A DNA stretch of 32,000 bases from Candidatus Altimarinota bacterium (GCA_041659405.1 JBAZYK010000001.1:120001-152000); one strand, 5' to 3'; counted from the first letter of the stretch, positions 6,494 to 28,200 are shown. Numbers and translations: made by a program. Notes: generated by a model from the sequence alone, not told the origin.

Positions 6494-6533
6494 AGCTCAG
6501 CTTGCGATAGAAATGAACACTTCGTGCATGGTG
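6494..6533 (+). repeat. Dispersed GC-rich repeat, family 1, copy A
   Basis: AGCTCAGCTTGCGATAGAAATGAACACTTCGTGCATGGTG. About 30 of 37 aligned positions match copy C (23461) by eye. Lies immediately 3' of the 5352-6467 CDS. Confidence 0.7.
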
Positions 6534-6545
6534 ACATAAAAAAAA

Positions 6546-6570: not shown

Positions 6571-6693
6571 AAGGCTTTCTAGGGCTTATAGTTAAAGTTC
6601 TTTCTGCAGCTTAGCGCTTTTACAAGCGTTTTCCCAATCGGGCTTCCGAAAAATGATTCGGTTGTCCCTTCCTCCCGGGCCATTTTTGGAGAG

Positions 6694-6735
6694 GAGCTTG
6701 CTCCGCTCGCGGTAGAAGTAAGCACTTCGCGCGTG
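6694..6735 (+). repeat. Dispersed GC-rich repeat, family 1, copy B
   Basis: GAGCTTGCTCCGCTCGCGGTAGAAGTAAGCACTTCGCGCGTG. About 32 of 37 aligned positions match copy C by eye. Embedded in a GC-rich non-coding island. Confidence 0.7.
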
Positions 6736-6824
6736 GAGGATGGTTTAAGCTACATAGTCCCAGGGCGGTGGCCCAGACGACGGGACGCGCTCATGCGCAC
6801 TTGCCAATTCAGTTTTGGCAGGGC

Positions 6825-23450: not shown

Positions 23451-23460
23451 TCGCAAATAA

Positions 23461-23504
23461 AGCTCGCTCAGCTTGCGGTAGAAATAGGCACTTCGCGCGT
23501 GCTT
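23461..23504 (+). repeat. Dispersed GC-rich repeat, family 1, copy C (best-preserved copy)
   Basis: AGCTCGCTCAGCTTGCGGTAGAAATAGGCACTTCGCGCGTGCTT. Two small hairpin modules (AAGCTcgctcAGCTT; AGCACttcgcgcGTGCT). Occupies most of the 61-nt gap between convergent thrS and the 158-aa ORF. Confidence 0.75.
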
Positions 23505-23511
23505 GAATAAA

Positions 23512-26350: not shown

Positions 26351-26378
26351 ATTCTATGAATTTTCAAAAAAGTGTCAA
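26351..26378 (-). promoter_or_regulatory. Strong sigma70-type promoter of the 724-aa ORF
   Basis: Minus strand reads TTGACA-16 nt-TAGAAT. The -10 lies about 70 nt upstream of the ATG at 26281. Confidence 0.55.
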
Positions 26379-26466
26379 GGGCTTTTTCACTGAAGGGGCG
26401 CAAGAGATTTTGTTATGCTTAAGCCTTTGCTGGTAAGATGACAGAAGGTTGGTTATTTACCTGCGT

Positions 26467-28164
26467 ATGGTTAAGCATTTTCAAAAAATAAGCACTTCGT
26501 GCGTGCTTGATGAAGTGATTGAGTTATTGTGGTTAACGGTTGTTTTTGCTTTACCCTTGGTCTTTTTGCCGAGTCTTTACACCACCTTTGAAATACCAAA
26601 AGTGGTGCTTTTTAGGGTGGTGACCTGGATTATGCTTTTGCTGTTTTTGATCAGGATCGGCAGGCATGGGATGAAATTTGGCAGGTCAAAAATGATCAAA
26701 TGGCTTTGGATTTTTGGCGGAGCGTTTTTGACTTTTTATCTATTGGCGACAATCTTTTCGACGTCACCGATTGTTAGTATTTTCGGCTTTTATCCACGCT
26801 TTCAGGGGCTTTATACTTTTTCGTGTTATGTAATTTTCGCGCTGATTGTTTTTCTGCAAATTGGCTCACAGGCCGATAAAACCAGTCGCGAAACCCAAGT
26901 TCGGCGAATCATAAAAACCATTTTTATTTCGGTGAGTCTGGTTTCGGTAATTGCGCTTTTGCAAAAATTTTTGCCGGGATTTTTGGCTTTCTGGAACGAT
27001 CAGGCTTTTGAAGGCAGAATTTATGGAACCATGGCCAATCCAAATTATTTGGGCAGTATTTTGGTAATGATTATTCCGTTGATGCTGATACGGCTTGTGG
27101 AAAACGAGGAAGAATCAAAGAAAAATAGAGCCACCTCAAAAAACATTTTTACAAAAACCATGCTTGTTTTGGCGCTTCTGCTAAATTTTACGGCACTTTA
27201 TTTTACATATAGTCGCGCGGCTTTTGTGGGGCTTGCCATAGGTCTGTTTTTTGCATTTTGGGTAATGGCAAAGAAGAAACATTCACCGGGAGTATTTTGG
27301 GTAACAGTAGGAGGAATTTTGGTAATAGTTGGATTTGTGGTTGTTGTGAATCTTTTTGGGCAGAACTGGAAATCAACTTTTCTGGAGAGACTAAAATTTC
27401 AGGGTCAATATACCGTTTCCGCGGAAACCCGCCTGGAGCTTTGGCCGGCTGTAACACGCCAAATCTTGGCTAGACCTCTGCTTGGTTATGGGCCGGAAAC
27501 TTTCGCGTTAACGTTTCCAAATTTTGCCCCTAAAAATATCAACACTTCACCATTAAAAGGTGCATATCCCGACCGTGCTCACAATGAAATTCTGGATATG
27601 GCCGTGCAAATTGGCATACCCGGACTTATGGCCTATCTGGGATTTTTAATTTTATTTTTCGTTATCGCGACAAAAAAAATCATCAATGATAAAAGCCAAT
27701 CATCCTGGTATTATTTGGGATTATTAAGCGGAATTCTGGCCCTGTTTGTTTCCAATCAATTCGGATTTTCGGTTACCACGTTGTGGGTTTATTTCTTTCT
27801 GTTTGTGGCTGTATTGCTGCAATATCTACCGCCTGACGATAACAGCAAGAAGCTTGCTCAGCGGCTGTTTGCAAAATCAAAGCCGACTATCCCGGACACT
27901 TCGCACTCGGCTGTTGGCCTCGTCGAAATGGGTACTTCGCGCATGCGGATAAATATTTTTTTCAAAATCATATTTGTTTTATTGGTACTTGGTGCGGGAT
28001 CCTGGTTTGTCTTTTTTCATGATGTGCGCCTGATTGAAGCGGATCTTTTGTATCGAAAAGGAGTAGACATATCAAACAATAATCCCGATAATCATAATTC
28101 TGAAGTTTATAGTCAATACCTGCAAAAAGCGGCTTTGTTACAGCCAGATCAGTATCAACGATGA
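26467..28164 (+). CDS. O-antigen ligase/polymerase-like (Wzy_C-type) polytopic membrane protein with a C-terminal soluble tail
   Basis: Multiple TM helices. YSRAAFVGLAIGLFF and PDRAHNEILDMAVQIGIPGL resemble the O-antigen-ligase domain loop (H-N-x-x-L...G). The start is uncertain: ATG 26467 preferred over TTG 26449, and GTG 26515 is also possible. Confidence 0.8.
   Translation: MVKHFQKISTSCVLDEVIELLWLTVVFALPLVFLPSLYTTFEIPKVVLFRVVTWIMLLLFLIRIGRHGMKFGRSKMIKWLWIFGGAFLTFYLLATIFSTSPIVSIFGFYPRFQGLYTFSCYVIFALIVFLQIGSQADKTSRETQVRRIIKTIFISVSLVSVIALLQKFLPGFLAFWNDQAFEGRIYGTMANPNYLGSILVMIIPLMLIRLVENEEESKKNRATSKNIFTKTMLVLALLLNFTALYFTYSRAAFVGLAIGLFFAFWVMAKKKHSPGVFWVTVGGILVIVGFVVVVNLFGQNWKSTFLERLKFQGQYTVSAETRLELWPAVTRQILARPLLGYGPETFALTFPNFAPKNINTSPLKGAYPDRAHNEILDMAVQIGIPGLMAYLGFLILFFVIATKKIINDKSQSSWYYLGLLSGILALFVSNQFGFSVTTLWVYFFLFVAVLLQYLPPDDNSKKLAQRLFAKSKPTIPDTSHSAVGLVEMGTSRMRINIFFKIIFVLLVLGAGSWFVFFHDVRLIEADLLYRKGVDISNNNPDNHNSEVYSQYLQKAALLQPDQYQR
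26488..26508 (+). repeat. Family 1 repeat, partial copy D (3' module only) inside the 5' end of the CDS
   Basis: ATAAGCACTTCGTGCGTGCTT, translated as ISTSCVL in the gene frame. Confidence 0.6.
27904..27948 (+). repeat. Family 1 repeat, copy E, inserted in frame inside the O-antigen-ligase-like CDS
   Basis: CACTCGGCTGTTGGCCTCGTCGAAATGGGTACTTCGCGCATGCGG. The 3' 22 nt match copy C at about 19 of 22 positions by eye. Translated as HSAVGLVEMGTSRMR between the ligase core and the last TM helix. Confidence 0.65.
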
Positions 28165-28200
28165 ACCTTTTGACAATAGCCCGTTTGAAAAAACCGGGGG

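What the first reader, a model, noticed from the sequence alone, without database searches (positions are those of the whole stretch)
26488..27948. One membrane-protein gene carries two in-frame family 1 repeat copies
The O-antigen-ligase-like CDS contains the 3' module of the repeat right after its probable start (ISTSCVL, 26488-26508). It also contains a full copy (HSAVGLVEMGTSRMR, 27904-27948) in the cytoplasmic or loop segment between the ligase core and the final TM helix. Both are in the same phase as all other copies, and neither introduces a stop. The gene is thus a natural test case for whether these elements are tolerated insertions in loops or contribute a functional peptide. Copy D also makes the true start codon ambiguous (26449, 26467 or 26515).
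Basis: seen in the sequence. Interest (0 to 1): 0.6.

Follow-up and report, generated by a model that had tools for sequence, protein, structure and literature searches.

The report
Mobile mini-repeat inserted in-frame in membrane gene
A membrane enzyme gene (WaaL/O-antigen-ligase type) of an uncultured ultra-small (CPR) bacterium carries two in-frame copies of a tiny mobile DNA repeat; both sit in floppy segments on the cell-interior side, where they look like tolerated passengers and not working parts.

Summary
Both repeat copies are real. Copy D (26486-26510) is a 5'-truncated copy in the N-terminal tail.

The internal copy is larger than reported. It is a 99-nt (33-codon) long variant at 27847-27945. 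It aligns without gaps to a 99-nt intergenic copy on another contig.

The same-genus genome G001, which lacks the repeat family, has an exact empty site: DNS|RI in G001, DNS[33 aa]RI here. More distant orthologs also lack the segment.

A sister population (~90% nucleotide identity) has the 45-nt short form at the same site, read in another frame. A second sister population has a decayed long form with a 12-nt deletion. The peptide is therefore not conserved.

The AlphaFold2 model (pLDDT 88.7) puts the insert in the cytoplasmic linker between TM12 and TM13. This is the only region with pLDDT below 50.

A helicase gene gives a clean filled/empty pair (40 nt plus a 5-bp duplication), which shows the family is mobile.

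ATG 26467 is the most likely start (about 65%); GTG 26503 remains possible.

The claim "same phase as all other copies" fails genome-wide.

An earlier follow-up in this scan described the family on this genome (e1-2550567). This report adds the empty site, the length variants, the sister alleles and the topology. The mobilising enzyme is unknown.

The parts
26467..28164 (+). Host gene: 565-aa Wzy_C / WaaL-like polytopic membrane protein (13 predicted TM helices, N-terminus inside). The preferred start is ATG 26467.
   Evidence: Pfam PF04932 E 5.5e-23. AlphaFold2 pLDDT 88.7, pTM 0.91. Best fold match is WaaL 7TPG, E 5.4e-7, TMt 0.66. Purifying selection: omega about 0.2 against sister alleles.
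26449..26451 (+). Alternative start TTG, the longest ORF; judged unlikely.
   Evidence: An AGAAGG motif abuts it with no spacing. No gene caller chose it.
26503..26505 (+). Alternative start GTG. It lies inside repeat copy D and is used by the Logan/ENA gene call (553 aa).
   Evidence: P0122 begins MLDEVIE. P0002 and P0003 were called the same way. This start would give an acidic N-tail with no K or R.
26515..26517 (+). It would leave no N-terminal tail before TM1.
   Evidence: Sequence. No gene caller used it.
26486..26510 (+). Copy D: a 5'-truncated family copy, made of the 20-nt 3' module plus a CTTGA flank. It is read as (K)ISTSCVL(D) if translation starts at ATG 26467.
   Evidence: nhmmer E 2.9e-7, model positions 28-52. 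92% identical to intergenic copy C over 25 nt. Present at the same place in L002 (E 2.9e-5) and, decayed, in L001. No hit in G001.
27847..27945 (+). Copy E: a 99-nt (33-codon) long-variant insertion, read as KKLAQRLFAKSKPTIPDTSHSAVGLVEMGTSRM. It has a 5' module (about 27847-27867), an internal segment of about 54 nt, and a 3' module (27926-27945).
   Evidence: Empty site in G001: DNS|RI there, DNS[33 aa]RI here. Gapless 68/99 identity with the C16 long copy. Alignment A6 shows the short, mid and long classes. The 3' module scores E 0.012 and the 5' module E 1.4 in nhmmer.
27946..27950 (+). Probable remnant of the right-hand target duplication (CGGAT, or GCGGA from 27945).
   Evidence: By analogy with the 45-nt geometry of canonical copies. 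The left 5-mer AAGAA (27847-27851) no longer matches, so this is inconclusive.
26368..26486 (+). 119-nt block with no difference from L002. It covers the upstream region and the first codons and ends where copy D begins. It is probably the promoter or 5' leader.
   Evidence: The background is about 90% nucleotide identity.
23455..23511 (+). Copy C, a canonical intergenic family copy after the upstream + gene.
   Evidence: E 5.6e-15.
6690..6745 (+). Copy B, a canonical intergenic family copy with a perfect GAGGA duplication.
6495..6540 (+). Copy A, a partial intergenic family copy.
   Evidence: E 1.6e-5.

Best explanation
The gene encodes a WaaL/Wzy_C-type membrane glycan ligase or polymerase. 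It has twice been hit by a tiny, non-autonomous mobile repeat that is specific to this lineage.

The repeat has a 40-nt core and inserts with a 5-bp target duplication, usually nTGGA. Each short insertion therefore adds exactly 45 nt, or 15 codons. Longer forms of 69 and 99 nt also exist.

The internal copy is a 99-nt long form. It landed between the Ser and Arg codons of the cytoplasmic linker that joins the 12-TM catalytic core to the extra 13th TM helix. It is translated as a 33-residue basic segment that is mostly disordered.

The N-terminal copy is a 5'-truncated remnant in the cytoplasmic N-tail, just after the probable ATG.

Both copies persist because they fell in positions and reading frames that do not disturb folding or topology. 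They are tolerated passengers that now evolve fast.

Shown here: family membership, the empty site, sister-lineage variation, mobility of the family, and the predicted location.

Inferred: neutrality of the peptides, translation of copy D, a single or a repeated origin at the E site, and the unknown enzyme that moves the element.
For: Empty site:
- The same-genus ortholog reads ...YQDNS|RILN..., while the window reads ...DDNS[33 aa]RINI....
- P0004 and seven more distant orthologs also lack the segment.

Family distribution: not found in 40 related genomes, including G001, nor in the 185,579 GTDB species representatives by exact pattern search.

Homology to intergenic copies:
- Gapless 68/99 identity with the C16 copy.
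- Alignment A6 shows the short, mid and long classes.

The peptide is not conserved:
- L002 has a canonical 45-nt copy at the same site (E 5.6e-10), read as GVRSAHGSNKHFVRV, which is another frame.
- L001 has a 12-nt deletion.
- dN in the insert is 0.25 against 0.079 in the rest of the gene. Omega for the rest is 0.19-0.23.

Structure and topology:
- The only pLDDT < 50 segment (478-487) lies inside the insert (461-493). The 10-residue block means there are 66, 51 and 48, against a whole-protein mean of 88.7.
- Loops on the predicted inside carry 16 K/R in 81 residues. Outside loops carry 7 in 106.
- The 12-TM core matches WaaL 7TPG.

Mobility of the family:
- The helicase gene is filled here and empty in L028. 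The difference is exactly 45 nt, with TCCAA duplicated.
- 6 of 22 copies have perfect 5-bp duplications, against 1.2 expected; P = 2e-4.

Other genes carry copies between or inside Pfam domains.

The mRNA of the insert folds no better than shuffled sequence, z = -0.46.
Against: - Omega in the insert (0.36 over 30 codons) is not 1, and K/R residues are kept in all three alleles. Weak constraint, or a role as a basic cytoplasmic linker, is therefore not excluded.
- The target duplication at copy E is no longer recognisable (AAGAA against CGGAT).
- The junctions in L002 differ by 5 nt and 2 nt from those in the window. The history at this site is more complex than one clean insertion.
- No transposase candidate was found.
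- No expression, proteomic or read-level population data could be obtained.
Confidence: 0.78

Rival explanations
1. Exaptation. The inserted segment now contributes a useful part. For example, its N-terminal KKLAQRLFAKSK stretch (predicted helix 458-470) could act as a basic, membrane-proximal anchor. This anchor would fix the orientation of TM13 and of the external C-terminal domain.
For: - AlphaFold2 predicts a short helix at 458-470.
- The insert carries 6 K/R in 33 residues in a cytoplasmic loop.
- Basic residues are retained in L001 (KKPAPRLSARSK) and also in the differently framed L002 peptide.
- Omega in the insert is 0.36, below 1.
Against: - Orthologs function without the segment.
- The sequence and even the reading frame differ between sister lineages.
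- pLDDT is the lowest in the protein.
- The same DNA occurs intergenically.
Confidence: 0.1
2. Copy D is not translated. Translation would start at GTG 26503 (or 26515). Copy D would then be part of the 5' leader, and its own terminal GTG would supply the start codon.
For: - The Logan/ENA gene call (P0122) and the calls for P0002 and P0003 start at this position.
- There is no Shine-Dalgarno motif at proper spacing before ATG 26467.
- The 119-nt block identical to L002 runs through ATG 26467. This looks like nucleotide-level (leader) constraint more than coding constraint.
- In G001 and P0004 the called start lies closer to TM1.
Against: - ATG 26467 is conserved in all three populations.
- The indels between it and TM1 are 6 and 9 nt, both in frame.
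- JGI and NCBI both call ATG 26467.
- Starting at GTG 26503 gives an N-tail with D, E, E and no K/R. That fits poorly with an N-in topology, and orthologs have K/R-rich tails.
- There is no Shine-Dalgarno motif before GTG 26503 either.
Confidence: 0.3
3. The E site is an insertion hotspot that was hit independently. A long form would have inserted in the ancestor of the window and L001 lineages, and a short form in the L002 lineage. This replaces the idea of one ancestral insertion that later changed length.
For: - The junctions differ: a 5-nt offset on the 5' side and a 2-nt offset on the 3' side. The element is read in different frames.
- The flanks next to the junctions are far more diverged than the ~90% background.
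- Both inferred empty sites contain an nnGGA target (inference).
- The family was active after the split.
- dS places L002 outside the window + L001 pair.
Against: - Two hits within about 3 nt of each other in a 1.5-Mb genome would be a strong coincidence.
- Copy D, in the same gene, is clearly shared by all three lineages.
- A 54-nt internal indel plus two small junction indels, or conversion by another family copy, explains the data equally well.
Confidence: 0.3
4. The segment is ancestral and was lost in other lineages, or it is an assembly artefact at a repeat.
For: None beyond the poor alignability of this loop among distant orthologs.
Against: - The segment is present only in three closely related populations. 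It is absent from two nearer outgroups and from all distant orthologs.
- It is homologous to intergenic repeat copies.
- It was assembled independently in the JGI/NCBI genome, in a Logan/ENA contig of 167 kb, and in the Logan contigs of two runs.
Confidence: 0.02

Closest known systems
Rickettsia palindromic elements (RPEs; Ogata et al. 2000, as summarised in PMC10969869)
   Same: A dispersed repeat family in a small genome. Its copies are often inserted in frame inside unrelated housekeeping and metabolic genes and are translated as extra peptide segments at permissive positions.
   Different: RPEs are about 100-150 bp and palindromic. This element has a 40-nt core with no terminal inverted repeats and only weak 4-bp hairpins. 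It makes a 5-bp duplication and points one way along each contig. There is no sequence relation to RPEs, and the host is a CPR bacterium.
Bacterial MITEs (Correia/NEMIS, ERIC, BOX, RUP)
   Same: Small and non-autonomous, flanked by target duplications, sometimes intragenic and in frame (PMC10969869).
   Different: MITEs are defined by terminal inverted repeats and derive from an IS. Here there are no TIRs (the ends GCTCGCTC... and ...GTGCGTG are not complementary), no parent IS was found, and the element is much shorter.
REP/BIME elements with RAYT, and IS200/IS605-derived elements
   Same: Very small, oriented, without TIRs; strand polarity is expected from single-strand transposition (my own knowledge).
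   Different: Those elements make no target duplication and need a Y1 (HUH) transposase. Here a 5-bp duplication is shown and no Y1_Tnp gene is found in a 98.5%-complete assembly. Polarity does not follow the sign of the GC skew.
Start-codon-inserting hairpin elements of CPR bacteria with an ATGRR 5-bp duplication and a GIY-YIG cargo
   Same: CPR host, a 5-bp duplication with a similar target (here mostly ATGGA or TTGGA), and copies at gene starts and in frame inside genes.
   Different: Those elements are hairpins, and their full forms carry a GIY-YIG gene. This family has no strong hairpin. The two small GIY-YIG ORFs of this genome are not flanked by family modules. This is only a lead.
WaaL O-antigen ligase (PDB 7TPG), for the host gene
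   Same: A 12-TM core fold (Foldseek E 5.4e-7, TMt 0.66) and a sequence match in the external catalytic loop.
   Different: The CPR protein has a 13th TM helix and an external C-terminal helical tail, which is TPR-rich in relatives. Its substrate is unknown.

Membership tests
Family-1 dispersed repeat of this genome (40-nt core + 5-bp duplication) | Sequence match to a family model built from other copies | tested here: met
   Copy D: E 2.9e-7. Copy E: 3' module E 0.012, with a collinear 5' module. The full 99 nt of E aligns without gaps to the C16 long copy, 68/99 identical, score 37 against -12.8 +/- 4.9 for shuffles.
Family-1 dispersed repeat of this genome (40-nt core + 5-bp duplication) | An empty site exists in relatives that lack the family | tested here: met
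   Copy E: G001 has DNS|RI; P0004 and distant orthologs lack the segment; the family gave no hit in G001. Copy D: the N-tails are too diverged to decide.
Family-1 dispersed repeat of this genome (40-nt core + 5-bp duplication) | Flanking 5-bp target duplication | tested here: inconclusive
   For the family as a whole it is met: 6/22 perfect, P = 2e-4, and TCCAA duplicated in the helicase filled/empty pair. At copy E the flanks are AAGAA and CGGAT, which have decayed. Copy D lacks its 5' end.
Family-1 dispersed repeat of this genome (40-nt core + 5-bp duplication) | Same orientation as the other copies on the contig | tested here: met
   Copies D and E are + like 15 of 16 copies on C1. In the whole genome, 41 of 42 copies agree with their contig's majority.
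Rickettsia palindromic elements | In-frame insertion into protein-coding genes, read through as peptide | tested here: met
   This gene. Also a helicase, a U32 peptidase, a GHMP kinase, a glycerate-kinase-like gene, a GlmU-like gene and others.
Rickettsia palindromic elements | Palindromic structure, about 100-150 bp, sequence homology to RPE families | tested here: not met
   The consensus fold of 22 copies is weak (-1.4 and -5.4 kcal/mol). The insert's RNA fold has z = -0.46. The core is 40 nt. No Rfam family matches.
MITE | Terminal inverted repeats and a related autonomous IS | tested here: not met
   The ends are not complementary (alignment). No longer family member with a gene was found. 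DDE transposases were not searched systematically.
REP/RAYT or IS200/IS605-type single-strand elements | Y1 HUH transposase in the genome; insertion without target duplication | tested here: not met
   PF01797 gave no match, and the control search rang in 6 of 14 genomes. A duplication is present.
Retro-element-derived short insertions | Reverse transcriptase in the genome | tested here: not met
   PF00078 gave no match.
Wzy_C / WaaL-like O-antigen ligase family (host gene) | Pfam PF04932 above the gathering score, and a WaaL-like 12-TM fold with a large external loop carrying conserved Arg/His | tested here: met
   81.8 bits against a cut-off of 31.7. 7TPG is the best fold match. R322, H372 and N373 are invariant in 48 homologs. 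The enzymatic activity itself is not testable here.

The most novel reading that the evidence does not exclude
The repeat would represent an undescribed kind of ultra-small mobile element with these features:
- a 40-nt core without inverted termini;
- a 5-bp duplication at nTGGA;
- uniform orientation over whole contigs;
- no recognisable transposase.

Its size classes (45, 69 and 99 nt including the duplication) are all multiples of three. Its surviving genic copies use only one benign reading frame per orientation. In effect it would be a codon-compatible parasite that keeps adding and remodelling loops in the proteins of a CPR bacterium.

The TM12-TM13 linker of this gene would be a recurrent landing or conversion site, with different forms in sister lineages.
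Probability: 0.35. Interest if true: 0.7.

Novelty: new variant of a known kind. Interest (0 to 1): 0.5.

Why it matters
In-frame selfish DNA in genes is best known from Rickettsia. This gene gives a case in a CPR bacterium that is unusually well bracketed: an exact empty site in a congener, three diverged filled alleles (two long forms, one of them decayed, and one short form read in another frame), and a confident structural model that places the insert in a cytoplasmic linker.

The gene shows how a very compact genome, about 90% coding, can absorb a mobile repeat. Copies survive where the frame and the protein position are permissive, and they then become fast-evolving loop material.

There are also practical consequences. 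Such copies blur start-codon calls: three pipelines gave two starts and two ends for this gene. They also inflate apparent lineage-specific protein segments.

The family's mechanism is unknown and could point to a new transposition route. It has no TIRs, it makes a 5-bp duplication, its orientation is polar, and no transposase was found.

Tried and rejected
- Rfam and tRNA/tmRNA scans of the window found nothing, so the repeat is not a known RNA.
- RNA structure: the consensus fold of 22 copies is weak, and the insert's fold is no better than shuffles. The idea of a structured RNA element was dropped.
- The terminator-like hairpin that copy D forms on the minus strand is at chance level: 3 found against 2.6 expected.
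- The search for related loci on metagenome contigs found no relative.
- A pattern scan of metagenome contigs gave one GC-rich contig with no detectable similarity to G000. At this database size I estimate it is a chance match.
- A scan of genome contigs gave nothing.
- Replication-linked polarity: orientation is uniform within each contig but agrees with the sign of the GC skew for only 28 of 42 copies, on 6 of 14 contigs. A simple leading/lagging-strand rule was rejected.
- Mobilising enzyme: there is no Y1 transposase and no reverse transcriptase. The two small GIY-YIG ORFs are not next to family modules.
- The 10-residue lineage-specific extension NEEESKKNRA (27103-27132) was checked as a possible third, decayed copy. 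It gave no family hit.
- The U32 peptidase comparison with G001 did not give a clean 15-codon gap. It gave 8 aa in a variable loop.
- The helicase has no ortholog in G001.

Full report
**Observation**

The ORF 26449..28164 (+) matches Pfam Wzy_C (E 5.5e-23) and contains both peptides at the stated coordinates. Repeat finding in the window groups 26486-26510 and 27926-27950 with intergenic copies at 6495, 6700 and 23466. Those three lie after stop codons, not in genes.

Genome-wide, an nhmmer model finds about 45 copies. A 21-mer of the 3' module, allowing up to 3 mismatches, occurs 27 times in this genome. It occurs 0 times in 40 relatives, including the same genus, and the reversed control gives 0. 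The exact pattern is absent from 185,579 species representatives. Copy D scores E 2.9e-7 against a model built without it. Rfam and tRNA scans are negative.

**What the internal copy really is**

A protein alignment with orthologs shows extra residues only in the window protein and its two closest relatives, P0002 (84% identical) and P0003 (80% identical).

The same-genus genome G001 has an exact empty site. Its ortholog reads ...YQDNS|RILN..., where the window reads ...DDNS[KKLAQ...GTSRM]RINI.... The insertion is therefore 33 codons, 27847-27945, not 15.

At the DNA level it is a long variant of the family: a 5' module, an internal segment of about 54 nt, and a 3' module. An intergenic copy on contig C16 has the same 99-nt length and aligns without gaps, with 68/99 identical and a score of 37 against -12.8 +/- 4.9 for shuffles. 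A 69-nt intermediate form sits on C11. Canonical copies measure 45 nt including the duplication. All three size classes are multiples of three.

**Sister lineages**

The Logan contigs L001 and L002 are about 88-91% identical in nucleotides to this genome.

- L001 carries the long form, decayed and with a 12-nt deletion.
- L002 carries a canonical 45-nt copy at the same site (E 5.6e-10). This copy is read in a different frame (GVRSAHGSNKHFVRV), with a 5-nt offset at the left junction and a 2-nt offset at the right.

Outside the insert the gene is under purifying selection (omega 0.19-0.23, dS 0.35-0.48). Inside the insert, dN between the window and L001 is 0.25 against 0.079 for the rest of the gene. 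The peptide is therefore not conserved.

I cannot decide whether the site was hit once and then remodelled, or hit twice.

**Copy D and the start codon**

Copy D is only the 3' 20 nt of the core plus a CTTGA flank. L002 has it at the same place, and L001 has a decayed version. It therefore predates the split of the three populations.

Evidence for ATG 26467 as the start:
- It is conserved in all three populations.
- The indels between it and TM1 are 6 and 9 nt, both in frame.
- The JGI and NCBI pipelines both use it.
- It gives a K-containing N-tail like those of orthologs.

Evidence against:
- There is no Shine-Dalgarno motif at proper spacing.
- Other callers use GTG 26503.
- In G001 and P0004 the called start is nearer to TM1.
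- A 119-nt block (26368-26486) is identical to L002 and ends exactly where D begins, which suggests leader-type constraint.

I put ATG 26467 at about 65%.

**Structure and topology**

AlphaFold2, run with 48 homologs, gives pLDDT 88.7 and pTM 0.91. The only segment below pLDDT 50 is 478-487, inside the insert (461-493). Residues 458-470 form a short helix, and the following coil runs to TM13, which starts at 497.

The core matches WaaL 7TPG (Foldseek E 5.4e-7, TMt 0.66; sequence E 5e-4).

Counting 13 TM helices from an N-in start places the insert in the cytoplasm. Inside loops carry 16 K/R in 81 residues, and outside loops carry 7 in 106.

Both copies therefore lie on the cytoplasmic side: one in the N-terminal tail and one in the linker after the 12-TM core.

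**The family is mobile and often genic**

A DEAH helicase gene carries a near-consensus copy. The 92%-identical ortholog in L028 lacks exactly 45 nt, and TCCAA is present once there and twice here.

Across 22 full copies, the 5-mers spaced 45 nt apart are identical in 6 cases, against 1.2 expected (P = 2e-4).

Copies lie deep inside at least eight further genes, between or within Pfam domains. All 14 deep genic copies use either one sense frame (ELAPLAVEIGTSCV-like; 5 copies, including D and E) or one antisense frame (THEVPISTASGASS-like; 9 copies). The Arg-rich frames appear only near ORF starts. This fits a selective filter on the encoded peptide.

L002 breaks even that.

**Mechanism: unknowns**

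- The ends are not inverted repeats, and the folds are weak.
- Orientation is uniform within each contig (41 of 42 copies) but does not track GC skew.
- No Y1 transposase and no reverse transcriptase gene is present.
- Earlier scan notes describe CPR elements with ATGRR duplications and GIY-YIG cargo. This genome has two small GIY-YIG ORFs, but neither is flanked by family modules.

**Comparison and novelty**

The behaviour matches Rickettsia palindromic elements (PMC10969869), but the anatomy fails the RPE, MITE and REP definitions.

The family was already reported by this scan on this genome (e1-2550567). One point of that note needs amending: the family is not confined to one bacterium, because sister populations share copies D and E.

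**Limits**

No sequencing-run search was possible, and searches of the metagenome contigs gave no further alleles.

Noticed in passing
window 28162-28179 (end of the gene): NCBI's protein for this gene (P0121, 570 aa) reads the TGA stop as Gly and ends ...QYQRGTFGQ, so the record was translated with code 25. However, TGA ends 122 of 881 long ORFs, and coding density under table 11 is about 90%. The code-25 annotation looks wrong for this genome.
   Followed up: partly
window 26368-26486 and 26438-26491: A 119-nt block upstream of and into the gene start has no difference from the ~90%-identical sister contig L002. It contains a 17-codon upstream ORF (MTEGWLFTCVWLSIFKK) that stays open in all three populations and overlaps ATG 26467.
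   Followed up: partly
window 26656-26703 compared with L002: Cytoplasmic loop 1 (IGRHGMKFGRSKMIKW) is replaced in the L002 allele by PLRLARPLRLG, a short tandem-like segment. This is a second fast-changing loop in the same gene.
   Followed up: no
window 27103-27132: A 10-residue extension (NEEESKKNRA) of the cytoplasmic TM6-TM7 loop is present only in the three close relatives. It gave no match to the repeat family.
   Followed up: partly
G000 C1:46140-46193 (helicase gene C1:44553-46721) compared with L028:3470-3595: A clean filled/empty pair for the repeat family. The difference is exactly 45 nt (40-nt core plus duplicated TCCAA), in frame between the DEAD and Helicase_C domains.
   Followed up: yes
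G000, genome-wide: Deep genic copies use only two of the five stop-free reading frames: sense ELAPLAVEIGTSCV-like, and antisense THEVPISTASGASS-like (9 of 9 antisense copies).
   Followed up: partly
G000 contigs C1-C21: Repeat orientation is uniform within each contig (41 of 42 copies). It agrees with the sign of the GC skew on only 6 of 14 contigs, so the cause of the polarity is unexplained.
   Followed up: partly
G000 C5:1500-2400: An 80-codon GIY-YIG ORF is followed by tandem partial copies of itself. Each copy is bounded by a GC-rich hairpin (core CCCCGCCATGGCGGGG), and there is an assembly gap of Ns. It resembles the mini GIY-YIG elements noted elsewhere in this scan.
   Followed up: no
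L028:1-2998: Upstream of the helicase, the sister contig carries genes (including an AbiEii-family gene) that produced no blastn match (E <= 1e-20) anywhere in G000; only L028 2999-5632 aligns. This is a synteny break between ~90%-identical genomes.
   Followed up: no
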